Positions 1,755 through 13,853 of a stretch of 64,000 nt of DNA are shown here, in pieces. The DNA comes from Gammaproteobacteria bacterium (GTDB lineage: Bacteria; Pseudomonadota; Gammaproteobacteria; Ga0077536): the NCBI GenBank assembly GCA_047611905.1, contig JBLFWZ010000002.1, positions 802 through 64,801 on the forward strand, written 5' to 3'. Each line of letters opens with the position of its first letter. The first letter of the stretch is position 1. The notes under the pieces are model-generated. The model worked only from the letters and a program-made list of their open reading frames with translations, was not told the origin of the DNA and searched no databases. The translations under genes were made by a program, and so were the position numbers.

Positions 1755-2867
1755 CTATTCGGCGAGGTGTTGCGAATTCTGGTACGCGGCGGCCTCTATT
1801 TGAATGATGTTCAGATCCTGTCGCGCGTTAATTGTTGAACCCGGATTGGCTGTAAGTCCGAGAAGTTCGAGTGATAGATTTGCGGCGTCTCCGTTGCGAA
1901 TCGGTTGTGGATCATGGTCGTACGTTGGATGAGAGGAGCCCGGATCTGCGCGCGTGTTAGGATTTAAGGCGTATAAATCTACTCCGGCAGTAGTATCCCC
2001 GCCCCAAACGTAAAACGGAATTGTGTGGTTTCCGCGGCTGTGGGCCGGTTGATGAGTCGTTGTTCCGATCCGGCCGCCGTGATCGGCAGTAACAATAACA
2101 ACAGTTTGATCACGTAGAGAGGTACTTGATTGAATCGCGTCGAGGATTTTACCGATTAAATGATCAACTTCGATCACTGAATTTAGATAGCCGCTTGCAA
2201 AGCTGAGGTCCCACTGTGAGGTATGGCCGGCTGTGTCGGGATCGCGAAAATGCATGAATGTGTAGTTGATTGGATTCGGCGCCATAGCACTCAAGAACTC
2301 GTCAACGAGATCACGCGTATCGACGTTAATCTCAAACACGTCAATCTTGTTTCGACCATCATCGCTACCGGTGAGATCAACGGCCCCGTTCGCGGTGTCA
2401 TAGCTTTGCTCGTAGAGAACAAATTTCGGCTTACTCGCAAATACTGCAGTAGACAGTCCGTGATCATGAATGACGTCAAAAACACTGCTCACGTAGCCGC
2501 CCTTCATTCGATGTAATGATGTTGAGGACCCGGGCATGCGGTTTCGCGTGTAGTTGTGTCCATTGGTACCGTCGACCGGACGACCTGTGATTTGCGTCGT
2601 GTGGTTCGGTAGGGTGACGGTATAGTTGGCGTCGGTGCGCGCATTGTCCGTAAACGCGCCTTCATCTCTAAGTCGAAAAAAACTTGGTAGCTGTGTCTCG
2701 CCGAGCGTTGTAATCGCGTCGGCGCGCAGGCCGTCCACGCTAATATGAATCACGTAGCGTGCAATCGCCGCATGAGCGTGAGTGGATCCGAAACCTGCAA
2801 GCATTACGATGATTAGGGCTTGGTTAAAAATTTTTACGTCAGCTGATTGCATTCGAGGACACTTCAA
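1755..2867 (-). CDS. secreted nucleotide pyrophosphatase/phosphodiesterase (alkaline phosphatase superfamily, NPP type)
   Basis: 370 aa. Signal peptide ending HAHAA. Motifs HISVDGLRAD, TLPNHTTQITG, HFRDPDTAGH and VTADHGG are typical of type I phosphodiesterase/NPP. Confidence 0.85.
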   Translation of the reverse strand: MKCPRMQSADVKIFNQALIIVMLAGFGSTHAHAAIARYVIHISVDGLRADAITTLGETQLPSFFRLRDEGAFTDNARTDANYTVTLPNHTTQITGRPVDGTNGHNYTRNRMPGSSTSLHRMKGGYVSSVFDVIHDHGLSTAVFASKPKFVLYEQSYDTANGAVDLTGSDDGRNKIDVFEINVDTRDLVDEFLSAMAPNPINYTFMHFRDPDTAGHTSQWDLSFASGYLNSVIEVDHLIGKILDAIQSSTSLRDQTVVIVTADHGGRIGTTTHQPAHSRGNHTIPFYVWGGDTTAGVDLYALNPNTRADPGSSHPTYDHDPQPIRNGDAANLSLELLGLTANPGSTINARQDLNIIQIEAAAYQNSQHLAE

Positions 2868-3194
2868 CGGAGGGAATTATTGTCTCGCTTCATATTAATC
2901 GAATATCGGATCGCAGTTCCCCTAATTTTGATCGGTTGGTGAGCTGCCGTTTCTAAAATCCAGATTCGAAATCCTCGGGTTTCAGGTTTGTTGAGCGTCG
3001 CATCGTTTTTGGCTCCTAAGGCTACCTTTTATCCCCACTTAGGTTCGAGACGCGGTGCGAACTGGGAACGAAACTTCCGCTATCTGCGAATCACGCCAAT
3101 TAGTGCGTTAGTCGACCGGCTTATCGGCTCAATGCCGCAAGTAAATCGAAATGTGATTAGACTCAAGAAATATTTATAATAAACCTTATATAAC

Positions 3195-3210
3195 AATACT
3201 TTATAGTATT
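3195..3210. repeat. perfect inverted repeat AATACT-TTAT-AGTATT inside a roughly 70 bp AT-rich block upstream of the EPS operon
   Basis: Read directly at 3195-3200 and 3205-3210. Flanked by imperfectly symmetric TATATAA arms (3186-3218). Confidence 0.5.
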
Positions 3211-3288
3211 TATATAAACTAAGTTATAATAAATGTCGGACTATTCCATCGTTCGTCGATGAGCACATAAAAGGAATTCGGAACGGAA

Positions 3289-4143
3289 GTGTTTTTGTAC
3301 CCACACCTGAAGAAAATGTGCGGAATTTCTCTGCGTTGTCGGCGCTTCAATGACGCGCGCCAAGAGTTAACTCGACACCGTATTCGTCTGGTCGGCGTAG
3401 TATGCGCTTTGCTGTTCGCATCTAGCGCAATTGCCGGTGAGAACACCATCGAAGGAGGGGCTATTTACTACGACTTGAGTGACGGTTATCAGTCGACGAA
3501 AGGCGAGTATCTGCGCGCGCGAATTGAAAGTTCGAGTTCTGACGCCTGGTTGCTTGATATTACAAACCTCGATCGATTCGGCGATGACGGCACCCAAATT
3601 AGCGTTGGAAATAGGCACATATTTACGGACAGGGTTTACTCGCAATTTTTTGTCGCTGGTAGTGCCGGTGGTTTCTTTTGGCCGCGCTTCAGAACTGACG
3701 GGTCGATTAGCATGAAATGGCTTGCCAACAAGAGTTTTGTTACCACTATCGGCGGTGGATATTTCGACGCGAAAGACGTTCACGAAGACCTCTGGGGCTA
3801 TGTCGAGGCAAGCTATTACTTCGATCGGCCAGTGGTGATCCAAGGTGGTATGCAGGTTAATGTGAGCGACCCAGGTTCAGTTAGCTCGACGTCTGGTTAT
3901 GTGGCCGCTTCGTACGTTAAAAACAAATCGCGAATTGCGTCCGTGCGGCTTGGTGTTGGAAATCAAGCGTACCAAGCCGTCGCGGTGAATAATTTTCAGG
4001 TCGATTTTCCGTTCCATTCGATTCGCATGACTTGGCGTGAATGGGTAGGAAAGACCTGGGGTATTAACCTAGCTGCAGAGCATTACGTCAGTGACGTCTA
4101 CGATCAGAATGGCATCGAACTCGGATTCTTCAAGGAATTCTAG
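3289..4143 (+). CDS. YaiO-family outer-membrane beta-barrel protein
   Basis: Signal-like segment LVGVVCALLFASSAIAGEN, alternating beta-strand pattern rich in Y/G, and a C-terminal aromatic residue (..GFFKEF) typical of OMPs. The GTG at 3289 or the ATG at 3316 are both possible starts. Confidence 0.7.
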   Translation: MFLYPHLKKMCGISLRCRRFNDARQELTRHRIRLVGVVCALLFASSAIAGENTIEGGAIYYDLSDGYQSTKGEYLRARIESSSSDAWLLDITNLDRFGDDGTQISVGNRHIFTDRVYSQFFVAGSAGGFFWPRFRTDGSISMKWLANKSFVTTIGGGYFDAKDVHEDLWGYVEASYYFDRPVVIQGGMQVNVSDPGSVSSTSGYVAASYVKNKSRIASVRLGVGNQAYQAVAVNNFQVDFPFHSIRMTWREWVGKTWGINLAAEHYVSDVYDQNGIELGFFKEF

Positions 4144-4945
4144 CGGCCGCCGTTTCGACCGTGGCGCCGGCAAACTGGTCGAACAGTGGCGTTATCGCGG
4201 CCACACGGGCCGGCTGATCCGACGCCATCGAGCATTGCGAAGCTTAGATATCGAAACCTCCAGCGTCGCTCACCCGTTTCTACTGTCCGTTGCGTCAATC
4301 GCATTAGTTATGTTGTCGAGCAAGGCCATTACAAACATTTGGGTTAACGTCATCCAGTTTTGGTGCGAGAGCATCGGGCTCGACGCAGAAATTACGGCGC
4401 GATCGGTTGTTGGTATCGGCGGCTTTTATTTCGAGATCCCGGACGTGCGCATTGAGAGTCCGTTACCGAATGCGGACATGTTGTTCTACTCGAGCATCAT
4501 CGTAGGTACTGCGATGCTTATGGCGTACGCGTTTCTACGTCGTTTTTTGCCGTTGTGCTATTTGGTGTGGGCGATCGGTTTAATTCAAATTGCTGCTTTA
4601 ATTCACTTTGCTATCTATCCGCAGGCGTTTCCTTACAGTATTGGCACTCATGTGACGAGTAGTCTGGAGATGATTTTCGTATTGCTGTTTTTGCTGCCGA
4701 TCTTACTCATGGTCGCCTACTATCCGCTGAATTTTTCCTTGTTGAAAAAGATCGCACTAACCGGGGTTAGCCTCGGCATGGTCATCATATTTGCACCTCA
4801 TCTCTATACGTGTCACATCGTGTTGATGAGTCACTTCTCAGTCCTGTACATGCCCGTTTTGTTCGCAGCATTCGGAGTCTTTCCCATTATCCTAATGGTC
4901 ATTGCGATCTATGGTTGGGGGATGAGCTGGACACAGCGATATTAA
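4091..4945 (+). CDS. polytopic inner-membrane protein of unknown function
   Basis: About 6 hydrophobic helices. Lies between the OMP and the GT2 with a 3 nt gap to the GT2 start. The start is uncertain: GTG 4091, ATG 4109 or TTG 4235. The first two overlap the upstream gene. Confidence 0.55.
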   Translation: MTSTIRMASNSDSSRNSSGRRFDRGAGKLVEQWRYRGHTGRLIRRHRALRSLDIETSSVAHPFLLSVASIALVMLSSKAITNIWVNVIQFWCESIGLDAEITARSVVGIGGFYFEIPDVRIESPLPNADMLFYSSIIVGTAMLMAYAFLRRFLPLCYLVWAIGLIQIAALIHFAIYPQAFPYSIGTHVTSSLEMIFVLLFLLPILLMVAYYPLNFSLLKKIALTGVSLGMVIIFAPHLYTCHIVLMSHFSVLYMPVLFAAFGVFPIILMVIAIYGWGMSWTQRY

Positions 4946-4948
4946 TCG

Positions 4949-6355
4949 ATGGCTAATTCTTCCAACGGCTCAAGCAGACTTGTATTGCGAGCTCTATTAG
5001 TGGTTATTTCGACCGTGCTCATCGCTTACGTGAGCAGTTCTGCAATTGCAATTGCGGTGCCTAATACCGGCGAGGTGGCGAACTCAGAGGTTACAGTTCC
5101 AGTTTATATTGCACGACTACAATTTGTTCTGATGAGTATCATCGCGTTGCTAGTCATCTTTATGTTGAGGCACCTGACCTTTACATTAAACCGCTTGTTC
5201 GGGCATCAACGACATCCCTATCTAGATATAGATATCGCCGATTGGCCCCGCATAGCTGTGTTTATCCCGGCGCACAATGAGGAAGCCGTCATTGAGTACG
5301 CGTTGAACGCCCTCGTCGACGTCGATTATCCCCACGACCGATTACGTATTGTCCCAATCGATGATCGTTCCGAAGATCGAACATGGGACATCATTCAACG
5401 ATTCCAGGACGAATTTCCGCATCTCATCTATCCTGTTCGGCGCGTTGCTGGTAAGAGAGGAAAAGCGGCGGCCATTATGCAAGCCGGCGAGTTTGTCGAC
5501 GAAGAAATAATCATCGTGTTCGATGCGGATTACGTTCCGGGTCGGGCACTCCTAAAACAATTGGCAGCGCCATTTTTTGATCCTGAAGTGGGTGCGGTAA
5601 TGGGTCGGGTTGTGCCTCACAACACGAGTACTAATTTACTCACTCGCTTGCTAGACCTAGAACGATCCGGTGGCTACCAAGTCGACCAGCAGGCACGAAT
5701 GAATTTAAGGCTATTACCTCAATATGGCGGATCGGTAGGCGGCGTGCGCGTACGTGCTCTCAACACAGTTGGTGGTTGGCGCGAAGACGCACTCGCCGAA
5801 GATACAGATTTGACTTATCGACTCCTGTTACATGGCTACAAAGTGGTCTACGAGAATCGATCCGAATGTTATGAGGAAGTTCCGGAAACTTGGCAGGAGC
5901 GCAATCGACAAATCATGCGTTGGGCGAAAGGACATAACCAAGCGGCTTTTCGCTATGCATGGCGCGTCCTATTCACGCATCATGTGCGCATCGTCGAAAG
6001 AATCGATGCGTTACTCCTACTCGGAGTCTACGCGGTTGCGCCATTACTACTCTTAGGTTGGATATGCGCGTTGGTGTTGTACTTTGCTGGCCATCAAACT
6101 TTGGCGAGCTCGGGTGTCGCGCTATTCGCGTTTGTCGGGTTCGGCGCTTTAGGAAATTTCGCCGCATTTTTCGAGATTGCTGCCGCATTGCATTTGGACG
6201 GTTCAGGTCATCGGGTTCGATTACTGCCACTTAATTTTCTAAGTTTTATCGCAAGCTTGATCAACATCACGCGAGCCTGTTTTCAGCTTGTGTTCGTCGA
6301 TTTCCTATTCAATCGCGATCTGCGATGGCAAAAAACCAAAAGGTATCGCAAGTAG
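4949..6355 (+). CDS. processive family-2 glycosyltransferase (membrane-embedded polysaccharide synthase)
   Basis: 468 aa. N- and C-terminal TM helices. Motifs IPAHNEE, DDRSEDRT, FDADYVP (DxD), EDTDLT and QIMRWAKG (QxxRW) are as in PgaC/NfrB/BcsA-type synthases. Confidence 0.9.
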   Translation: MANSSNGSSRLVLRALLVVISTVLIAYVSSSAIAIAVPNTGEVANSEVTVPVYIARLQFVLMSIIALLVIFMLRHLTFTLNRLFGHQRHPYLDIDIADWPRIAVFIPAHNEEAVIEYALNALVDVDYPHDRLRIVPIDDRSEDRTWDIIQRFQDEFPHLIYPVRRVAGKRGKAAAIMQAGEFVDEEIIIVFDADYVPGRALLKQLAAPFFDPEVGAVMGRVVPHNTSTNLLTRLLDLERSGGYQVDQQARMNLRLLPQYGGSVGGVRVRALNTVGGWREDALAEDTDLTYRLLLHGYKVVYENRSECYEEVPETWQERNRQIMRWAKGHNQAAFRYAWRVLFTHHVRIVERIDALLLLGVYAVAPLLLLGWICALVLYFAGHQTLASSGVALFAFVGFGALGNFAAFFEIAAALHLDGSGHRVRLLPLNFLSFIASLINITRACFQLVFVDFLFNRDLRWQKTKRYRK

Positions 6356-7434
6356 TGGCTACGGGTATTCAAATCGGGCTGCTTTTCTTAGTTACCTTTC
6401 TAATGCTAGCGGTATCGCTAATTCCTGCGATCTTGGAATGGTATGCGAAGACCGATGCTGAGCCTCTGCGCGTGGTCCGTGAACAAGATATGAGCATTCG
6501 ACATTTTGCGACTTCGTTTCGCACGCAAGTAAATACATTTCTATACGACAACAATATCGATCTCGCCAACCCACCGGAACCGTTTGAGGGTATCTGGCAT
6601 ATCGATCAGCCAGTCAGTTTTCTTGGCAAAACCGAACGTCCGGAATTGCGTCTCGATGAGTTAAAGGAGCGTCTGGTTAATCGCGTATTGTTAGGCGCTG
6701 CGGAATTGGTCTTGCCGGGCGACATGGTGTTCGAGGAGGAAGTTTATTGTCGCGGCTCGTTGGCATGCGGCGACCGTGCGGCGTTTCGTGCGCTGTATTG
6801 TGAAGAGGGCATTGTCCTAGGTGACGAATGCGTTGTCGTGCGATGGTTGCATTCTGACGGAACTGTGACCGTCGGTGCACAAAGCCGATTATTTGGTCGA
6901 TTGTCAGCTAATCGCTCAGTGACGATTGGTTCCGGCTGCGAGTTCGAACGGATGAGTTCTCCTGTGATTCGATTTGCGGCCCCGCTAATTCACAGACCCA
7001 CCCCGGTAGAACGATCTACATGGCAGGCAGACGAGCGGATGGAATCAATTGATGAAGACACGCTGCTGTCGGCGGGCGCGATATCAATCGAGGATGCGAC
7101 CTCGGTTCGTTCGAACTTAATCGCCAAAAAGCAACTAAGCGTCGGTCGCAACGTCGATATTCAAGGCAGTCTGAAAGCGCACAAATCACTTCGAATCGGT
7201 TCTGGGTCCGTGATCCGTGGGGCGATTGTATGCGGCGGAGAAATCGAAATTGACGACGCTTGTTTAATCAAAGGCCCGCTAATCTCTGAGACTTCTATTC
7301 AGATTGGCGCGGGTTGTGTGATCGGCACGCCCGGGATGCCGACTTCGGTCTCGGCGCCACGGATTTATATCACGTGCGGCGCCCAAATCTCAGGCACTTT
7401 ATGGGCGGGGCTCGAAGGTCGGGTCGTTGATTGA
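6325..7434 (+). CDS. membrane-anchored beta-helix repeat protein (bactofilin / hexapeptide-like)
   Basis: N-terminal TM helix (IQIGLLFLVTFLMLAVSLIPAIL), then repeated short G/V/I-periodic segments (VGRNVDIQGSLKAHKSLRIGSGSVIRGAIVCGGEIEIDDACLIKGPLISETSIQIGAGCVIG). Overlaps the GT2 stop. The alternative GTG 6355 gives a TAGTG overlap. Confidence 0.65.
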   Translation: MAKNQKVSQVVATGIQIGLLFLVTFLMLAVSLIPAILEWYAKTDAEPLRVVREQDMSIRHFATSFRTQVNTFLYDNNIDLANPPEPFEGIWHIDQPVSFLGKTERPELRLDELKERLVNRVLLGAAELVLPGDMVFEEEVYCRGSLACGDRAAFRALYCEEGIVLGDECVVVRWLHSDGTVTVGAQSRLFGRLSANRSVTIGSGCEFERMSSPVIRFAAPLIHRPTPVERSTWQADERMESIDEDTLLSAGAISIEDATSVRSNLIAKKQLSVGRNVDIQGSLKAHKSLRIGSGSVIRGAIVCGGEIEIDDACLIKGPLISETSIQIGAGCVIGTPGMPTSVSAPRIYITCGAQISGTLWAGLEGRVVD

Positions 7435-7583
7435 TTTCCCCCAGGGCGACCGCTAGTGCGAACTCCGACCGCCTGGAGGGTTGCAGCGCGTCCGCAACTA
7501 TGACACGAAAATTTACGCGTAATTGCCGGTTTTTACCGGAAATGGCGGGGACGTCTCTCAAGAATGGCTGTAAAATCTGTTTG

Positions 7584-9506
7584 ATGGATATAACTCGAAT
7601 TTACGCTGCGCGACTCGCCGTACGGGTGCTGTTAGCAACCGTGGCCATGTGCCCGACAAGTTTACTCGCCGCCGGTAACGTCTCGTGGGTTGGCGGCGTC
7701 GGCAACTGGGACGACGGCTCTAACTGGTCGAATGGGTTCGAACCGATATTCTCAGACGATGTCGACATTGCAACGGGAGACGTGACAACCTCAACCACGA
7801 ACATCACTAACAATCTCCGTGTCGCAGGCAGCTTGGCTGTGACCAACGGTACCTTGGACATCATTGATGATTTATCAAACCACGGATCCATAGAAGTTCT
7901 TCAAGGAAGACTAGAGGCCGATACTTTTATCAACGAAGCACTCGGGGTGATTTCAATACGCGGGCTGGGTGCAGAAGCCTACGGTGTGATTGATTTCATT
8001 AATCGCGGTTTAGGCACTGTGGAACTAGACGCGTCGCTCCAGGCCGGTGCTCTGACAAACTTTCAGAATTTGACAATTAAGACGAGAGCCATCGGGTTTA
8101 GCCAAACAATGGTCAACAAGATCGGCGGCGTCTTCAACATCCAGAATAGCTCCAGCGTACTCACGGTGTCAGGCAACATCACCAACGAAGGGATGTTTAA
8201 CGCAAGCGATATGGCGAGCGTCACCGCCGCCAGTGCGGTTAACTACGACACCATCGATATCGATAACGCGGGCCTCACCTTAAGCAGTTTGCTCAATACG
8301 TCCACGGGCGTGCTGACGGTTGGCGGATCGGCCGCACTGCTCAAAATTAACGGCGCGATCGTCAACGAAGGCCAGTTGACCGCTGAGCTGGGTTCGAGCG
8401 CAATCATCGTTAGCATCGACAACCATCACGTTTTCGAACTCAAGACTGGGGCAACAGCTAACCTCGAATCGGTATTGAACTTTGCTGGCGGCGATATCAA
8501 GGTTGCCGGCACAGGTAGCGAACTCACGCTTACTAGCAATTTACAGAATGTCGGCAGCGTAACGGTGCAAGATTCGGGCACATTAAATGCTCTGAGTGTC
8601 ACCAACCTTAAGAGTTTTGAAGTTCGTTCGGGCGCAGTGGTTGAAACCGCAAGTGTCGTGAATTCGAGTACCAGCACCGCGCTCGTGACTGGCGCACAGA
8701 GCCGGCTAAATCTAACTAACAATTTCGAAAACAACGGCTCATTGGTGGTGTCGGATAGCGGGACGTTAAGTACGGAGAGTTTTGACAACAAAAATAGCGC
8801 CGAAATTCACAGCGGTGGGCAGCTTGAAGCAAATTCTCTTGTCAACCGAGCGACTGCAACGATGCTTGTAAGCAATGCGGGGACAAATGTTTCGATCACG
8901 GGTGCAACGGTCAATCACGGAGCGCTCGAAATTAGCGGCAGCGCAATCTTATCTTCGTCATCGTTTGAGCAGTTGTCCGGCGAAACCGCACTACTAGGCG
9001 GGATGCTAACTGGCACGACTTTTGGCGTGACTATACTCGGCGGCAGTCTCACGGGATTCGGTGACATCGGTAGCGACCTATTGCTTGGCGGTAGCAGCAG
9101 TGCTGCGCCGGGATCGATTGCCGATCAAACTCAACAATTCGATATCGCTGGTGCCCTGCAGTTAGCGGGAACCTTCGTCGTCGAAATCGGCGATACAGCG
9201 CTCGGCGAATTTGATCGGATCGTTAGTTCCGGCGCGGTCACTCTGGGCGGCACCTTGCAAGTCGATCTACTCGGTGGCTTCGAGCCGATCGTAGGTGACA
9301 CCTTCGATATTTTGATTGGTAGTTCCGTAAGTTCGAATTTTGTCTCAACGTTGTTTCCAGTTTTCGGCGGTAGAACGTTTGACGTTCTCCTCGGTACGGA
9401 TTTCGCGCGCCTGACGGTCCGGGCTGTGCCGCTACCTGGCGCGCTATATTTAATTGTACCCGCGTTATTGTTCTTGGTGAGATCCCGCCGAGTGCCCCAT
9501 TCGTAA
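7584..9506 (+). CDS. repeat-rich secreted surface protein with PEP-CTERM-like C-terminal sorting tail
   Basis: Start taken at ATG 7584 (MDITRIYAARLAVRVLLATVAMCPTSLLAAG signal peptide). GNVSWVGGVGNWDDGSNWSNG resembles an autotransporter-associated beta-strand repeat. Degenerate repeats of about 40-45 aa are rich in N/S/T/G. The C-terminus is VPLPGALYLIVPALLFLVRSRR. Confidence 0.8.
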   Translation: MDITRIYAARLAVRVLLATVAMCPTSLLAAGNVSWVGGVGNWDDGSNWSNGFEPIFSDDVDIATGDVTTSTTNITNNLRVAGSLAVTNGTLDIIDDLSNHGSIEVLQGRLEADTFINEALGVISIRGLGAEAYGVIDFINRGLGTVELDASLQAGALTNFQNLTIKTRAIGFSQTMVNKIGGVFNIQNSSSVLTVSGNITNEGMFNASDMASVTAASAVNYDTIDIDNAGLTLSSLLNTSTGVLTVGGSAALLKINGAIVNEGQLTAELGSSAIIVSIDNHHVFELKTGATANLESVLNFAGGDIKVAGTGSELTLTSNLQNVGSVTVQDSGTLNALSVTNLKSFEVRSGAVVETASVVNSSTSTALVTGAQSRLNLTNNFENNGSLVVSDSGTLSTESFDNKNSAEIHSGGQLEANSLVNRATATMLVSNAGTNVSITGATVNHGALEISGSAILSSSSFEQLSGETALLGGMLTGTTFGVTILGGSLTGFGDIGSDLLLGGSSSAAPGSIADQTQQFDIAGALQLAGTFVVEIGDTALGEFDRIVSSGAVTLGGTLQVDLLGGFEPIVGDTFDILIGSSVSSNFVSTLFPVFGGRTFDVLLGTDFARLTVRAVPLPGALYLIVPALLFLVRSRRVPHS

Positions 9507-9543: not shown

Positions 9544-11583
9544 TTAAGAGGACAAGAGCACACTTAATTCCTGCAATTCTCCGATCGGCGGCAAGCACTG
9601 GTGGCCGCGACAAACGTAAGCAGTAACCGCCGCACGGCGCTTGTGTGCGGATAATAGGCCAGGCAAGCGGTGTACCTCATTAGGAATCGAAAAGACTTGT
9701 TGGCGAGGTGAATAAACCTGGGCCAATTCCCGATTCCATAAATCCAAATCCATTTTCCGGCCGCGTAAAATTACCAAGGTCGGTGGCACCAAATACTCAT
9801 CAAGTGCGAGAAGCAGGGCGTTGTGCGCGCTAGGCGCGTGGTTAATCGAGGCCCACGCGGCCGACAAGGTCCGCTCGCTCGCCTCAAGATAACGAGTTTC
9901 GCCAAGCAGGTGGCCAAGGCGTGAGAGCGCCCACGCGGCAATACCATTGCCCGCCGGTAGCGCGTCGTCGGTAAAAGGTTTCGAGCGCTGGATAAGAGAC
10001 TCATGGTCGTGTGCTGTGAAGAAAAAGCCACCTTGTTCGATATCTTCGAAATTCTCTAACACGCAATCGGCTAGTTCAATTGCGAATTCTAGATTCGCGC
10101 TATTCCAACGGGCACTAAGAAGATGTAACAGCGCGTCGATCATAAAGACGTAGTCGTCCAGATAGGCATCGAGATGTGCGGTTCCATCCTTGTAGGTCGC
10201 TAACAGTCGCCCCTCGTGCCACATCTTTTCCCGAATGAAACCGACGGCGCGTTCGGCGGCATCGGCATAGTCAGAGCGATCCAGAGTGTGCGCTGCGATG
10301 GCTAATCCTTTGATCATGAGCGCGTTCCATGAGGTTAGGATTTTGTCGTCGCGATCCGGCCTAATGCGCGATTGCCGATAAGTGAATATCTGCTCTCTGG
10401 CATCGTTCACGCTTTGTTCGATGGCTTCAGGGGTGCCGCCAAGGACATTGGCAATTTCATGGAATTGCGCGGCGATTCGGAGATGCCATCGGCCGTCGAA
10501 ATTGGCGGCGCGCTCTAGGCCAAAGCGTCGAGAAAACGCTTCATGCTGAGTCCCAAGTACCGTGGAGATTTCTTCGCGACTGAAAGAGTAGAATTTGCCC
10601 TCGATGCCTTCGGAATCCGCATCCAAACTCGAATAGAAACCGCCGTCTGGCGATGTCATTTCGCGCGCTAACCAGTCGGCCGTCTCGCCCACGGTAGTTT
10701 TGAATAGCGGTTCGCCGCTTAACTGCCATGCTTGCGCGTAAAGTCCGAGCAGGGGCCCATTGTCGTAGAGCATCTTTTCGAAATGCGGAATCATCCATTG
10801 GTCGTCCACCGAGTAGCGACAAAAACCGCCTCCAAGATGATCGTAGATTCCACCATTGGCCATTTTCTTCAGAGTAAACAAAGCCATATGTAGCGCGTGT
10901 TCATCCGGTTCTCGGCCGCGCGAAAAATCTCGCAGCAGACGCTCCAAGCTACTGGGGTGTGGAAATTTAGGGGCTCTGGTGAAACCGCCAAGTCGATGAT
11001 CGAATGCTCTAGCCGCCTGATCGCGGGCAATTTGCAACGGCTCTGAAGAGAGTTCGCCGATTGGCGCGACGGGGTGGCGCTGCATCTCTGATAATGCGTC
11101 CACTATTTGCTCGTTTTGGCTGCGGACATCCGTCTCGCGCTCGCGGTACAAGATACTGACCCGGTCGAGCAGATCCTTAAATGCGGGTAACCCATGTCGC
11201 GCGCTCGGAGGGAAATAAGTACCACCCAGGAACGGGATCTGATCGTTTGGAGTTAAGAACATCGTTAACGGCCAACCGCCATTGTTTTGAGTTAGCAGGT
11301 AGTGAGCCGTTTGATAAATTTTATCGATGTCCGGGCGTTCCTCGCGATCGACTTTAATGTTGACGAACAACGCGTTCATTTTCTCGGCGGTCGCGGGATC
11401 TTCGAATGATTCGTGCGCCATTACGTGGCACCAGTGACATGCGGAATAGCCGATCGAAAGTAGGATAGGTTTGTTTTCATTGCGAGCTTTTGCCAGCGTC
11501 TCCTCTCCCCAGGGGTACCAATGCACGGGATTGTTAGCGTGTTGCAACAAGTAGGGACTCGTTTCGTTCTGCAGTGCGTTCAT
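9544..11583 (-). CDS. thioredoxin-domain protein of the YyaL/DUF255 family (N-terminal thioredoxin fold plus six-hairpin glycosidase-like domain)
   Basis: 679 aa. [19 protein letters not shown] thioredoxin-like motif and the long alpha/alpha-toroid-like remainder typical of this family. Confidence 0.9.
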
Positions 11584-11706
11584 TGAGTATTTCTATTTCC
11601 GGGCGGTTGTTTTTCTAGCGACACGGTTGGCGCTCGCTAAGCGCGAAATTTGGCAACAAATTCGTACGCCATTCTATCTTCCGAGTGACTTCCTAGCGAC
11701 GGCGGC

Positions 11707-12522
11707 GTGCTAATATCCCAGCCCGCTATGATTCCGTTTCCAAACATCGATCCAATCGCTATTGAGCTCGGTCCAGTCGCGATCCATTGGTATGGCATTT
11801 CCTATATCGTCGGTATCGGACTTGGATGGCTTGCCCTGCAACGCAGTTCAGGTTCGTCAGACCTTCAATGGACGAAGGATGATGTTGCCGATGTCGTCTT
11901 TTTCGCAGCGATCGGCGGGGTGTTGGGCGGGCGGATCGGCTATGCCTTGTTTTACAATTTCAGTGACTATGTTGATGATCCGCTTGGAATTCTCGCTGTG
12001 TGGCGCGGTGGCATGTCGTTTCACGGCGGGGTAATCGGCTTTATTCTCGCTCTCGCGATTTTTGCCAAACGACGTTCGCGACCGCTCCTCGCGACCACTG
12101 ATTTCGTCGTACCGGCCGTACCCATAGGCTTGTTTTTTGGCCGCATTGCGAACTTCGTAAATCAAGAATTGTGGGGCGCGCCGACTTCCTTGCCTTGGGG
12201 TGTGGTGTTTAGCCACCCTATGGCGGGAAGTATTGCGCGCCATCCCTCGCAGCTCTACGAGGCAGCACTCGAGGGTGTTTTGCTGTTTCTGATTTTGCGT
12301 TTCATTGCCGCCCGTACGCCTCCACAAGGCGTCGTGTCTGGCGTGTTCTTGGTCGCCTACGGCATCATGCGCGCGGGCATTGAATTCGTCCGCGAACCGG
12401 ACCAACATATTGGTTATTTAGCCTACGGCTGGGTGACGATGGGGCAGGTGTTGTCCCTCCCGATGATGTTCCTCGGCGTGTTACTCATCGTACTATCGCA
12501 GCGTGATCGCGGCATCAATTAG
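11707..12522 (+). CDS. lgt: prolipoprotein diacylglyceryl transferase
   Basis: FPNIDPIAIELGPVAIHWYGISYIVG, GGRIGY, RGGMSFHGG and FGRIANFVNQELWG are Lgt signatures. GTG 11707 or ATG 11728 are possible starts. Confidence 0.92.
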   Translation: MLISQPAMIPFPNIDPIAIELGPVAIHWYGISYIVGIGLGWLALQRSSGSSDLQWTKDDVADVVFFAAIGGVLGGRIGYALFYNFSDYVDDPLGILAVWRGGMSFHGGVIGFILALAIFAKRRSRPLLATTDFVVPAVPIGLFFGRIANFVNQELWGAPTSLPWGVVFSHPMAGSIARHPSQLYEAALEGVLLFLILRFIAARTPPQGVVSGVFLVAYGIMRAGIEFVREPDQHIGYLAYGWVTMGQVLSLPMMFLGVLLIVLSQRDRGIN

Positions 12523-12531
12523 GGTGATTTA

Positions 12532-13326
12532 ATGCAGGTCTATCTCGATTTACTACGCCACGTCCGTGAAAACGGAGTCGAAAAAGGGGACCGAACAGGC
12601 ACTGGTACGCTGAGTGTGTTCGGCCACCAAATGCGTTTCAATCTCGCTAAAGGCTTTCCGTTATTAACGACAAAAAAAGTCCACCTAAAGTCGATTATCC
12701 ATGAGCTACTGTGGTTTTTAAGCGGCGATTCAAACGTCCGGTACTTGAACGATAACGGCGTATCTATTTGGGACGAGTGGGCTGATGATGCCGGTGATCT
12801 CGGACCCATCTATGGTGTGCAATGGCGCAGCTGGCGTGCGGCCGATGGGCAATCGCATGACCAAATTTCGGACGTAATAGCCGCACTTAAATCAGACCCG
12901 AATTCTCGTCGGCATATCGTGAGCGCCTGGAACGTTGGCGAAATCGATTCGATGGCTCTGGCGCCGTGCCACACGATGTTTCAGTTTTACGTGGCCGAAG
13001 GTCGCTTGTCGTGCCAATTGTATCAACGCAGCGCGGACATCTTTTTAGGTGTACCGTTTAATATTGCGTCTTACGCGTTACTAAATTTGATGGTTGCCCA
13101 AGTCTGCGGATTAGAGCCCGGTGAATTTGTGCACACCTTGGGTGACGCGCACTTGTACATGAATCATCTAGATCAGGCAGACGAGCAGTTGCGCCGCGCG
13201 CCAACTTGTTCGCCGACGATGGTACTAAATCCAAATGTACCTTCGATTTTTGAGTTCAGCTACGACGACTTCACCCTTGAAAATTATCATCCGCTGCCGG
13301 GCATTGCTGCACCGATTGCGGTTTAG
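12532..13326 (+). CDS. thyA: thymidylate synthase
   Basis: 264 aa with [26 protein letters not shown] and [20 protein letters not shown]. Confidence 0.97.
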
Positions 13327-13361
13327 CTGGCCGCGGCTCACAAAGCCAAAGGGGCTTTGAC

Positions 13362-13853
13362 GTGCGCCTAAATATCGTCGTCGCGATGTCGATGAATCGA
13401 GTGATTGGTCGAGGTGGTCAGTTACCCTGGCGTCTGCCTGCGGATCTGAAATATTTTAAGAATATTACTATGACGCATCCGATTATCATGGGTCGCAAGA
13501 CGCACGAATCGATCGGACGCGCGCTACCGAGTCGCCTAAACGTTGTTGTCACGCGTAACGTTGACTTCCAGGCCCCGGGATGCGAGATAGCTAATTCACT
13601 TAGGCAAGGAATGGATGTTTGTGGATCGGCTAACGACGTGATGATCATCGGTGGCGCGACGCTGTATCGCGAAGCCTTATCGATGACTGAACGAATTTAC
13701 CTAACTGAGGTACATGTTGAGCTGGATGGCGACACACTTTTCCCGGCGCTGCACAAAGATGATTGGCGCGAGTCTTCGCGAGAATTTCATGGTGCCGACG
13801 ATGCGAACGAATTCGATTACAGTTTCGTCGTTTTTGAGCGAGCAAACCGATAG
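13362..13853 (+). CDS. folA: dihydrofolate reductase
   Basis: 163 aa with IGRGGQLPWRLPADLKYFK..T..HPIIMGRKT.ESIG and VMIIGGA.LY. GTG start. Follows thyA. Confidence 0.92.
   Translation: MRLNIVVAMSMNRVIGRGGQLPWRLPADLKYFKNITMTHPIIMGRKTHESIGRALPSRLNVVVTRNVDFQAPGCEIANSLRQGMDVCGSANDVMIIGGATLYREALSMTERIYLTEVHVELDGDTLFPALHKDDWRESSREFHGADDANEFDYSFVVFERANR

What the first reader, a model, noticed from the sequence alone, without database searches (positions are those of the whole stretch)
3289..7434. Compact synthase-dependent exopolysaccharide module: YaiO-type barrel, small polytopic protein, processive GT2 and a membrane-anchored beta-helix protein
**Seen in the sequence.** Four tightly packed co-oriented genes have gaps or overlaps of about -53 to +3 nt.
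- An OMP has a terminal aromatic residue and YaiO-like features.
- A roughly 230-280 aa polytopic membrane protein has no recognisable motif.
- A 468 aa GT2 has DxD and QxxRW motifs and flanking TM helices.
- A 369 aa protein has one N-terminal TM helix and bactofilin/hexapeptide-like beta-helix repeats.

**Established knowledge, as I recall it.** YaiO-type barrels accompany GT2 synthases in the cryptic E. coli yaiO-yaiP locus. I also believe the barrel of NfrA in the NfrAB exopolysaccharide system is YaiO-type.

**Inference.** This is a minimal porin plus synthase secretion system for an unknown polymer. It has two uncharacterised accessory proteins and no c-di-GMP receptor domain on the synthase.
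Basis: partly seen in the sequence, partly recalled or inferred. Interest (0 to 1): 0.6.

Follow-up and report, generated by a model that had tools for sequence, protein, structure and literature searches.

The report
Uncharacterised YaiO-porin polysaccharide synthase operon
This is a real, conserved five-gene operon of uncultured Gammaproteobacteria that most likely makes a sugar polymer and exports it through both membranes, using a known type of synthase and outer-membrane barrel together with two helper proteins that no curated family covers.

Summary
Four co-oriented, overlapping genes encode a full-length YaiO barrel, a 278 aa six-helix membrane protein with no family, a GT2 with all PgaC-type synthase motifs, and a membrane-anchored tandem beta-helix protein.

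The unit is larger than reported. A fifth gene encodes a secreted repeat protein with a VPLP-type exosortase tail. It keeps its place in about 16 independent loci from uncultured Gammaproteobacteria.

- **Sugar lead:** a UDP-GlcNAc 2-epimerase lies beside the module in about half of the loci, which points to a ManNAc-type polymer.
- **Physical coupling:** in metagenomes the membrane protein occurs fused to the YaiO barrel, to the GT2 and to the beta-helix protein.
- **Family size:** that membrane protein belongs to 547 clusters at 50% identity and has no Pfam or NCBIfam model. Neither predicted fold has a full-length match in the PDB.
- **Separate lineage:** the GT2s form their own clade, apart from PgaC, YaiP, NfrB and the HEAT-type YaiO-linked synthases.

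Verdict: a new variant of synthase-dependent exopolysaccharide secretion. Polymer identity, processivity and the helper roles are inferred.

The parts
3289..4143 (+). g1: YaiO-family outer-membrane beta-barrel with a signal peptide and a C-terminal Phe. It has no TPR or other periplasmic domain.
   Evidence: TIGR04390 scores 125.3 bits (cut-off 32) over 1-230/230, and PF19413 scores 89.7 bits. The alignment with eight homologues and E. coli YaiO is. The alternative start is ATG 3316.
4109..4945 (+). g2: 278 aa inner-membrane protein of a family with no curated model. It has a conserved cytoplasmic G..I..HRAL motif, six TM helices and a periplasmic beta-hairpin.
   Evidence: No Pfam or NCBIfam hit. 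The AF2 model has pLDDT 85 and no PDB fold match, with TM-scores of 0.25 or less. A profile search finds 547 clusters at 50% identity. It occurs fused to YaiO, to the GT2 and to g4 in metagenomic proteins. The longest ORF starts at 4091.
4949..6355 (+). g3: membrane GT2 synthase of the PgaC/cellulose-synthase type with no C-terminal receptor domain.
   Evidence: Pfam Glyco_tranf_2_3 scores 91 bits. The best NCBIfam hit is PgaC_IcaA at 122.6 bits, far below the equivalog cut-off of 422. The motifs DDRSxD, FDAD, AEDTD and RQIMRW align with PgaC. The best PDB hits by sequence are 6yv7 and BcsA. It falls in its own clade with 100/100 support.
6325..7434 (+). g4: N-terminally membrane-anchored protein with a conserved juxtamembrane motif (PLRVVREQD..IRHFA) and two beta-helix blocks, probably cytoplasmic.
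   Evidence: The AF2 model has pLDDT 90. The best local fold match is bactofilin BacA 2n3d, TM-score 0.71 normalised to the target. The family profile matches bactofilin 6ria at E 7.8e-6 and GlmU LbH at E 1.5e-5. The Pfam bactofilin score is 23.6 bits, below the 27.9 cut-off. Invariant arginines R155, R173, R192 and R209 recur every ~18 residues.
7542..9506 (+). g5: secreted repeat-rich protein of about 640 aa. It has a signal peptide and a C-terminal VPLPG + TM + RSRR tail of the VPLPA/PEP-CTERM type. The likely start is ATG 7584.
   Evidence: It is conserved in this position in the window-type loci. Heads and tails are compared. The genome has about 18 ORFs with similar tails and an XrtD-like exosortase. 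No family model reaches threshold.
2868..3288 (.). Intergenic region between the divergent AlkP-fold gene and g1, with an AT-rich block at about 3160-3235. It is the presumed promoter and operator region.
   Evidence: Sequence read. The simple sigma-70 scan found no site here. Function was not tested.

Best explanation
The five genes form one operon for a synthase-dependent exopolysaccharide system.

**Proposed pathway**
1. The GT2 (g3) sits in the inner membrane. It polymerises a UDP-activated hexosamine, most likely UDP-ManNAc or UDP-GlcNAc.
2. The chain crosses the inner membrane through a channel that g3 builds together with the six-helix protein g2.
3. The chain leaves the cell through the YaiO barrel (g1).
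4. g4 is anchored beside the synthase with its tandem beta-helix in the cytoplasm. It acts as a scaffold or regulator of the complex.
5. g5 is exported and sorted by the genome's XrtD-type exosortase. At the surface it either processes or anchors the polymer.

**Shown here**
- Family memberships and the synthase motifs.
- The predicted folds of g2 and g4.
- Strict co-conservation of the genes.
- Gene fusions that link g2 to g1, g3 and g4.
- The recurrent neighbouring epimerase.

**Inferred**
- That a polymer is made at all.
- Its composition.
- The channel role of g2.
- The topology and role of g4.
- The role of g5.
For: - **Family and motifs:** g1 is a full-length YaiO barrel. g3 has all PgaC-type motifs and cellulose-synthase-fold relatives in the PDB.
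- **Co-conservation:** the order g1-g2-g3-g4-g5 is kept in about 16 independent loci at 26-74% protein identity.
- **Rearranged loci:** these keep the same gene set. L037 reads epimerase-GT2-g4-x-x-YaiO-g2, L038 reads GT2-g4-g2-YaiO, and L067 reads epimerase-YaiO-g2-GT2-g4.
- **Epimerase:** a UDP-GlcNAc 2-epimerase (PF02350) lies directly beside the module in L005, L007, L008, L027, L028, L031, L034, L037 and L067. One copy exists elsewhere in this genome.
- **Fusions:** g2 is fused to YaiO in seven 50%-identity clusters. One of them keeps an internal signal peptide with an AHA cleavage motif. g2 is also fused to the GT2 (P0142) and to g4 (P0109).
- **Variant loci:** in L007 and L037, g5 is replaced by a ~630 aa protein with a weak hit to a polysaccharide deacetylase (E 4e-4). 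Such an enzyme is typical of these systems.
- **General pairing:** 18 of 20 YaiO loci sampled across the class carry a PgaC-like GT2 within about 2 kb.
- **Precedent:** E. coli NfrB depends on WecB, and its product is proposed to be a ManNAc polymer (PMC8669472).
Against: - No polymer has been seen, and no member of this module or of any YaiO system has been studied experimentally.
- The D/DxD/QxxRW motif set also occurs in some non-processive GT2 enzymes, as I recall for ceramide glucosyltransferase. The top PDB hit (6yv7) is, as I recall, an archaeal mannosyltransferase assigned to N-glycan synthesis.
- The YaiO barrel domain (~230 aa) is smaller than the porins of the studied systems (as I recall, 16-18 strands). 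No TPR scaffold bridges the periplasm.
- In this genome the epimerase is on another contig and is only 38-47% identical to the module-linked ones.
- The roles of g2, g4 and g5 rest on context alone.
- The PEP-CTERM models do not reach threshold on g5.
Confidence: 0.62

Rival explanations
1. The GT2 is not a polymer synthase. It makes a glycolipid or a short oligosaccharide, for example a HexNAc oligomer or a lipid-linked sugar. g2 flips or transports that product, and the YaiO barrel lets it reach the outer leaflet or the medium.
For: - GT21 and HpnI-type models also hit g3, but weakly: Glyco_transf_21 at E 4e-9 and HpnI at 44 bits.
- The best PDB hit is 6yv7, as I recall a mannosyltransferase of N-glycan synthesis.
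- NodC scores 66.9 bits.
- The barrel is small and there is no TPR scaffold.
Against: - The best-scoring curated models are the polymer synthases PgaC/IcaA (122.6 bits), ahead of MftF (84 bits) and CelA (72 bits).
- The C-terminal TM bundle after QxxRW resembles that of PgaC.
- Variant loci carry a deacetylase-like secreted protein.
- YaiO-GT2 pairing is general.
Confidence: 0.15
2. g4 is an enzyme, not a scaffold. It would be a membrane-anchored hexapeptide-type (LbH) acyltransferase that acylates the sugar nucleotide or the nascent chain. This would parallel YaiX in the E. coli yaiS-yaiP-yaiX-yaiO cassette. It is a rival only for the role of g4.
For: - The family profile matches the GlmU LbH domain at E 1.5e-5 and LpxD at about 4e-3.
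- There are sub-threshold NCBIfam LpxD and GlmU hits.
- BLAST against YaiX fragment 1 gives weak hits, E 5e-5 to 3e-3 in a tiny database.
- E. coli YaiX is a true Hexapep protein in the same kind of locus.
- His176 is invariant, within RWLH.
Against: - PF00132 Hexapep does not hit g4.
- LbH_EIF2B scores 24.7 bits against a cut-off of 54.
- The best PDB profile hit and the best local fold match are both bactofilin.
- Several homologues carry precomputed bactofilin hits.
- The known LbH acyltransferases that I recall are soluble trimers and have no TM anchor.
- No acyl-CoA site could be tested here.
Confidence: 0.25
3. The operon serves the PEP-CTERM protein g5. The GT2 would make a glycan that is attached to g5, or would co-process it during exosortase-dependent sorting. 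The end product would be a glycoprotein surface layer rather than a free polysaccharide.
For: - g5 keeps its place after g4 in all window-type loci.
- The genome has an XrtD-like exosortase and about 18 VP[LIV]P-tailed ORFs.
- g3 gives weak hits to exosortase-associated GT2 models: XrtP-associated at 66.9 bits and XrtG-associated at 54.9 bits.
Against: - The core g1-g4 set exists without any PEP-CTERM protein in L007, L037 and L067.
- The exosortases are on other contigs.
- g2 is not an exosortase (hhalign probability 0.06%).
Confidence: 0.08

Closest known systems
PgaABCD / IcaADBC poly-beta-1,6-GlcNAc system (E. coli pgaABCD)
   Same: - An inner-membrane GT2 with the same motif set, which is the best curated model hit (122.6 bits).
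- A small membrane partner, as PgaD is for PgaC.
- An outer-membrane beta-barrel exit.
- A HexNAc substrate is likely.
   Different: - Only 25% identity to PgaC, far below the equivalog cut-off of 422 bits.
- The partner g2 has six helices and is unrelated to PgaD.
- The barrel is YaiO-type with no TPR domain.
- The window has no PgaB-like deacetylase.
- It has an extra membrane-anchored beta-helix protein and an exosortase-tailed protein.
E. coli yaiS-yaiP-yaiX-yaiO cassette (uncharacterised)
   Same: A YaiO barrel, a membrane GT2 and a beta-helix repeat protein lie together in one compact locus.
   Different: - YaiP is 24% identical to g3 (E 7e-8) and falls outside its clade.
- YaiX is a soluble true Hexapep acyltransferase, whereas g4 is TM-anchored and nearer to bactofilin.
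- The E. coli cassette has a YaiS deacetylase and no g2 or g5 equivalent.
NfrA-NfrB-YbcH system of E. coli (N4 glycan receptor)
   Same: A GT2 synthase plus an outer-membrane protein. It depends on a UDP-GlcNAc 2-epimerase, and its product is proposed to be a ManNAc polymer (PMC8669472).
   Different: - NfrB aligns with g3 only at E 0.04. RefSeq annotates NfrB as a c-di-GMP-activated glycosyltransferase.
- NfrA is a 990 aa TPR protein with an NfrA_C barrel, not a YaiO barrel.
- YbcH (DUF4434) has no counterpart here.
Receiver-YaiO-HEAT-GT2 operons (uncharacterised, seen in other Gammaproteobacteria)
   Same: A YaiO barrel directly linked to a PgaC-like GT2 plus one membrane-associated partner (L065, L066).
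   Different: - There the partner is a HEAT-repeat protein and a stand-alone receiver heads the operon.
- Those GT2s form a separate clade from the window type.
- They have no g2, g4 or g5.
Bactofilins (BacA, CcmA; PF04519)
   Same: The C-terminal block of g4 superposes on BacA (2n3d) with a target-normalised TM-score of 0.71. It has the same ~18-residue turn period. The best PDB profile hit is bactofilin 6ria.
   Different: - The Pfam score is below threshold (23.6 against 27.9 bits).
- g4 has two beta-helix blocks, a TM anchor and a conserved juxtamembrane motif.
- No polymerisation was shown.
- I found no report of a bactofilin as a subunit of a polysaccharide synthase.

Membership tests
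YaiO outer-membrane barrel family (TIGR04390 / PF19413) | Full-length match to the family model above the curated cut-off | tested here: met
   125.3 bits against 32, covering 1-230/230. PF19413 scores 89.7 bits against 23.9.
YaiO outer-membrane barrel family (TIGR04390 / PF19413) | Signal peptide and C-terminal aromatic residue typical of outer-membrane barrels | tested here: met
   It has the hydrophobic segment ...LVGVVCALLFASSAIA|GE and ends in ...FFKEF. The terminal F or W is conserved in homologues.
Processive membrane GT2 synthases (PgaC / BcsA / NodC / HAS type) | Motifs D, DxD, (T/A)ED and Q(R)xxRW in order in a cytoplasmic GT-A domain | tested here: met
   D139/D143, D192-A-D194, E284-D285, and R324-W325 within RQIMRW. 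These residues are invariant across the family and align with PgaC.
Processive membrane GT2 synthases (PgaC / BcsA / NodC / HAS type) | TM helices on both sides of the catalytic domain that could form a channel | tested here: met
   A hydropathy scan finds 1-2 N-terminal and 2-3 C-terminal helices.
Processive membrane GT2 synthases (PgaC / BcsA / NodC / HAS type) | Processive chain elongation coupled to translocation | not testable with these tools
   This needs an enzyme assay. The motif set is not exclusive to processive enzymes.
PgaC/IcaA equivalog (TIGR03937) | Score above the equivalog cut-off | tested here: not met
   122.6 bits against 422.3. Identity to E. coli PgaC is 25%.
NfrAB system | NfrB-type GT2 with a C-terminal c-di-GMP receptor domain, and an NfrA_C barrel with TPR repeats | tested here: not met
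   g3 against NfrB gives E 0.04, and g3 has no extra domain. NfrA hits NfrA_C, not YaiO. The YaiO profile aligned to NfrA gives probability 0.2%.
Bactofilin (PF04519) | Match above the gathering score | tested here: not met
   23.6 bits against 27.9.
Bactofilin (PF04519) | Bactofilin-type beta-helix fold | tested here: inconclusive
   Foldseek gives TM-score 0.71 normalised to BacA 2n3d, but E = 2 and probability 0.75. The profile hit to 6ria has E 7.8e-6. The handedness of the model could not be inspected.
Hexapeptide (LbH) acyltransferases (PF00132) | Hexapep repeats detected by the model | tested here: not met
   There is no PF00132 hit. LbH_EIF2B scores 24.7 against 54, and LpxD and GlmU models score 22-25 bits against cut-offs above 200.
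PEP-CTERM / VPLPA-CTERM exosortase substrates (TIGR03370, PF07589), for g5 | C-terminal motif, TM helix and basic cluster recognised by the model | tested here: inconclusive
   The pattern VPLPG-ALYLIVPALLFLV-RSRR is present. The model gives no hit on the window protein and 11.3 bits against 25.35 on the L008 homologue.
PEP-CTERM / VPLPA-CTERM exosortase substrates (TIGR03370, PF07589), for g5 | A cognate exosortase in the genome | tested here: met
   There are two PF09721 hits, at 235 and 72 bits. For the first, the best model is XrtD, the VPLPA-CTERM-specific exosortase, at 312 bits. That is below the 400-bit cut-off and covers half of the model.
Synthase-dependent exopolysaccharide secretion systems (Pga, Bcs, Alg, Pel) | Inner-membrane synthase and outer-membrane barrel encoded together | tested here: met
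   g3 and g1 lie in one operon, and the pairing is conserved.
Synthase-dependent exopolysaccharide secretion systems (Pga, Bcs, Alg, Pel) | Periplasmic TPR scaffold linked to the porin | tested here: not met
   None of the five proteins has a TPR hit.
Synthase-dependent exopolysaccharide secretion systems (Pga, Bcs, Alg, Pel) | c-di-GMP receptor on or beside the synthase | tested here: inconclusive
   No PilZ, MshEN or GIL domain was found. As I recall, PgaCD binds c-di-GMP without such a domain, so absence of a domain does not settle it.

The most novel reading that the evidence does not exclude
g2 and g4 may be two new kinds of synthase co-subunit.

- **g2:** a six-helix partner that completes the translocation channel of a helix-poor GT2. 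It may also hand the chain to the YaiO barrel through its periplasmic hairpin. That would explain why it is found fused to either neighbour.
- **g4:** a membrane-anchored, bactofilin-like beta-helix with a ladder of invariant arginines. It would either polymerise to cluster synthase complexes, or be a new receptor for an anionic signal that replaces c-di-GMP control.

Together with a YaiO porin and a ManNAc-type substrate, this would define a separate class of polysaccharide secretion machine. It would be widespread in uncultured bacteria.
Probability: 0.2. Interest if true: 0.75.

Novelty: new variant of a known kind. Interest (0 to 1): 0.6.

Why it matters
Four synthase-dependent systems (cellulose, PNAG, alginate, Pel) supply almost all that is known about how bacteria push a growing sugar chain through two membranes.

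This module keeps the synthase and an outer-membrane barrel but replaces everything else.
- It has no TPR scaffold and no recognisable c-di-GMP receptor.
- It has a new six-helix partner and a membrane-anchored beta-helix protein.

The partner family alone has 547 clusters at 50% identity and no annotation. The gene fusions give concrete hypotheses about subunit contacts. The epimerase link gives a testable guess at the sugar.

Studying it could show what a minimal trans-envelope polysaccharide conduit needs. It could also shed light on the cryptic YaiO loci of E. coli.

Tried and rejected
- **g2 as an exosortase-like sorting enzyme for g5:** rejected. hhalign probability is 0.06% against the genome's own exosortase. 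g2 has no invariant Cys. g2 also occurs in loci without a PEP-CTERM protein.
- **NfrA barrel as YaiO-type:** not supported.
- **Upstream divergent AlkP-fold phosphodiesterase (1755-2867) as part of the module:** it is adjacent only in the same-genus loci L001 and L030, so this is probably plain synteny.
- **PDB fold searches for g2 and g4:** no full-length match.
- **PDB sequence searches:** no hit for g1 (E up to 10), the g2 profile (E up to 10) or the L037 638 aa protein (E up to 1). g5 had only a chance hit at E 0.18.
- **Homologue search with g5:** six hits, uninformative.
- **Literature:** no functional study of YaiO systems or of bactofilin-linked polysaccharide synthases was found.
- **The search for related loci with the 18-sequence alignment:** failed for lack of a conserved stretch, then worked with 8 closer sequences.
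- **Promoter scan:** the simple sigma-70 scan found nothing upstream of g1.

Full report
**1. Observation**

The + strand between 3289 and 9506 carries five co-oriented ORFs.
- g1 runs from 3289 to 4143.
- g2 runs from 4091 to 4945. Its conserved start is ATG 4109, giving 278 aa.
- g3 runs from 4949 to 6355.
- g4 runs from 6325 to 7434.
- g5 is an ORF from 7431 to 9506. Its likely start is ATG 7584, or 7542 as the gene caller has it.

g1 and g2 overlap by 53 nt (35 nt with the conserved start). A 3 nt gap separates g2 from g3. g3 and g4 overlap by 31 nt.

GC content is about 0.47-0.54 across the region and is not anomalous.

**2.

g1 matches the YaiO barrel model TIGR04390 end to end, at 125.3 bits against a cut-off of 32. 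It also matches PF19413 at 89.7 bits. It has a signal-peptide-like segment and ends in Phe.

g2 has no Pfam or NCBIfam match.

g3 is a GT2: Glyco_tranf_2_3 at 91 bits and Glycos_transf_2 at 84 bits.
- Its best curated model is PgaC/IcaA at 122.6 bits. That is far below the equivalog cut-off of 422.3 bits, so g3 is PgaC-like but not PgaC.
- An alignment of seven family members with E. coli PgaC and YaiP shows invariant residues in the DDRSxD, FDAD, AEDTD and RQIMRW motifs.
- The best PDB relatives by sequence are 6yv7, a GT2 that I recall as having a minimal cellulose-synthase-like fold, and BcsA.
- No receptor domain follows the last helix.

g4 has one N-terminal TM helix.
- Its AF2 model (mean pLDDT 90, pTM 0.79) shows a helix at 2-42 and a low-confidence but highly conserved segment at 43-55.
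- A helix at 49-75 follows, then two beta-helix blocks at about 120-217 and 240-368.
- Pfam bactofilin (23.6 bits) and the LbH models are all below threshold.
- The family profile hits bactofilin 6ria at E 7.8e-6 and the GlmU LbH domain at E 1.5e-5.
- Foldseek finds no full-length PDB match. The best local one is bactofilin BacA, with TM-score 0.71 normalised to the target.

**3. The unit is larger than reported and is conserved**

The g4 family is rare in the word-based search: 22 clusters among 5.8 billion sequences.

Contexts of five members at 31-59% identity show the same order in each. That order is YaiO, a 255-268 aa membrane protein, the GT2, g4 and a 512-644 aa protein without Pfam hits.

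A scan of species-representative genomes found 14 loci, all from uncultured Gammaproteobacteria or Pseudomonadota MAGs. tblastn shows the five genes in order wherever the contig is long enough.

Within the window's own taxonomic family the module is patchy.
- It is present in 3 of 11 genomes of the genus.
- It is present in 5 other genera of the family.
- It is absent from all 24 genomes sampled from other families.

In several genera it lies next to the DUF255 thioredoxin-lgt-thyA-folA block, in either orientation.

**4. The fifth gene**

In the window, L001, L003, L005 and L008, g5 has three shared features.
- A signal peptide.
- A conserved W-x-G-x-x-G-x-W-x-D-x-x-x-W-S head.
- A C-terminal VP[LIV]P + hydrophobic helix + arginine cluster.

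The PEP-CTERM and VPLPA-CTERM models do not reach threshold. Membership is therefore inconclusive on model score.

However, the genome has about 18 ORFs with the same kind of tail and two exosortases. The better exosortase match is best described as XrtD, the VPLPA-CTERM-specific type, at 312 bits. That is true of the window but not of the genome.

In L007 and L037, g5 is replaced by an unrelated ~630 aa protein. That protein has a weak hit to an XrtA-system polysaccharide deacetylase (E 4e-4).

**5. A lead to the sugar**

A UDP-GlcNAc 2-epimerase gene (PF02350) lies directly beside the module in L005, L007, L008, L027, L028, L031 and L034. It heads the rearranged operons in L037 and L067.

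That is about half of the loci with enough flank, and the epimerase lies on either side of the module in these loci. This points to UDP-ManNAc as substrate.

The precedent is E. coli. There the NfrB-dependent N4 receptor glycan needs WecB but no other ECA gene, and it is proposed to be a ManNAc polymer (PMC8669472).

In the window's genome the only PF02350 gene is on contig C123. It stands alone, next to what looks by eye like a transposase fragment. It is 38-47% identical to the module-linked epimerases. For this genome the link is therefore weaker.

**6. g2 is a sizeable unannotated family and a hub**

The AF2 model (pLDDT 85) shows a cytoplasmic N-terminal segment with the invariant G..I..HRAL motif. 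It also shows six TM helices and a beta-hairpin at 94-114 on the periplasmic side. No PDB structure resembles it, with TM-scores of 0.25 or less.

An exhaustive profile search of 1.84 billion representatives finds 547 clusters at E up to 1e-3, and 229 at E up to 1e-30.

Some members are fusions.
- g2 is fused to a YaiO barrel in seven clusters. In P0060 the linker keeps a signal-peptide-like helix ending in AHA. This suggests cleavage and release of the barrel.
- g2 is fused to the GT2 in P0142 (716 aa).
- g4 is fused to g2 in P0109 (692 aa).

These fusions, the strict co-occurrence and the overlapping reading frames argue that g2 contacts the synthase, g4 and possibly the porin precursor.

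I infer that g2 completes the translocation channel of the helix-poor GT2. PgaD assists PgaC in a comparable way. This role is not shown.

**7. g4 topology and features**

In 14 of 18 homologues the segment before the TM helix carries no Lys or Arg. The 25 residues after it carry 2-6, and each protein has 4-10 cysteines.

By the positive-inside rule the beta-helix domain is cytoplasmic. This is an inference.

The first beta-helix block carries invariant arginines at 155, 173, 192 and 209, one per ~18-residue turn. It also carries an invariant RWxH. Such a ladder would suit binding of an anionic ligand or of membrane lipid.

Whether g4 is a bactofilin-like scaffold, a regulator or an LbH acyltransferase like E. 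coli YaiX remains open. I favour scaffold or regulator, because the best hits are to bactofilin and the Hexapep model does not match.

**8. Place among known systems**

In E. coli K-12, yaiO lies with yaiX (a Hexapep acyltransferase broken by IS2), yaiP (a GT2) and yaiS (a deacetylase). g3 is only 24% identical to YaiP.

NfrA hits NfrA_C, not YaiO, and a YaiO profile does not align with it.

Across the class, 22 of 300 sampled genomes have a YaiO-domain gene. In 18 of 20 extended loci a PgaC-like GT2 lies within about 2 kb. Only two of those loci carry g2 and g4.

At least two of the other loci belong to a different subtype: receiver, YaiO, HEAT-repeat protein and GT2. Earlier notes of this scan describe that subtype and the yaiSPXO cassette. 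None of them shares sequence with g4.

A maximum-likelihood tree puts the window-type GT2s in their own clade with 100/100 support on a long stem. That clade is apart from the GT2s of the other sampled YaiO loci and from PgaC, YaiP and NfrB.

**9. Verdict**

The locus is a real, conserved operon. It is best read as a synthase-dependent exopolysaccharide system of a new subtype.
- Its porin is a YaiO barrel.
- It has no TPR scaffold and no recognisable c-di-GMP receptor.
- It has two accessory families without curated models.
- It has an exosortase-tailed fifth protein.
- It probably uses a HexNAc, perhaps ManNAc, substrate.

No member has been studied, and I found no paper on it. Polymer formation, composition and the accessory roles are inferences.

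Noticed in passing
L065:7467-11095; L066:7439-11100: A different recurrent YaiO-linked operon in other Gammaproteobacteria. It runs stand-alone response-regulator receiver, YaiO barrel, ~350 aa HEAT-repeat protein, PgaC-like GT2. Its GT2s form a clade separate from the window type.
   Followed up: partly
proteins P0053, P0060, P0066, P0076, P0110, P0164, P0166 (metagenomic): Single ORFs fuse the inner-membrane protein g2 to a YaiO outer-membrane barrel. P0060 keeps an internal signal-peptide-like helix ending in AHA before the barrel, which suggests a polyprotein cut by signal peptidase.
   Followed up: partly
L007:4723-6597; L037:6247-8163: In two loci the fifth gene is an unrelated ~630 aa protein (the two copies are 42% identical). 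It has a weak hit to an XrtA-system polysaccharide deacetylase (E 4e-4). L037 also has 341 aa and 544 aa secreted proteins of unknown family inside or next to the operon.
   Followed up: partly
genome contigs C254:1452-2213 and C12:35225-35950; about 18 ORFs genome-wide: The genome has two exosortases. One is XrtD-like and lies next to a PrsT-like TPR protein. About 18 ORFs end in VP[LIV]P + helix + basic cluster, so a VPLPA-CTERM sorting system is present away from the window.
   Followed up: partly
genome contig C123:4628-9317: The genome's only UDP-GlcNAc 2-epimerase gene (6140-7252) stands alone, outside any polysaccharide cluster. By eye, its neighbours look like a transposase fragment (4628-5503) and a small bactofilin gene (8904-9317).
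   Followed up: no
window 9544-13853 and loci L001, L003, L008, L034: The module sits beside the DUF255 thioredoxin (YyaL-like) gene and the lgt-thyA-folA block in several genera. It lies in opposite orientations relative to that block, which suggests an old insertion site with a local inversion and many later losses.
   Followed up: partly
window 3160-3235: An almost pure A/T block with TATAA-like repeats lies about 55-130 nt upstream of the g1 start. The simple sigma-70 scan scored no site there.
   Followed up: no
window 1755-2867 (-): A divergent secreted alkaline-phosphatase-superfamily protein (Phosphodiest 72 bits, Sulfatase 54 bits). It is adjacent to the module only in the same-genus loci L001 and L030.
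   Followed up: partly
protein P0161 (metagenomic, 1496 aa): A g2 domain at the N-terminus of a long protein with DUF11 repeats and a T9SS C-terminal sorting domain. This suggests the g2 family also occurs in Bacteroidota, or that the gene was merged in error.
   Followed up: no
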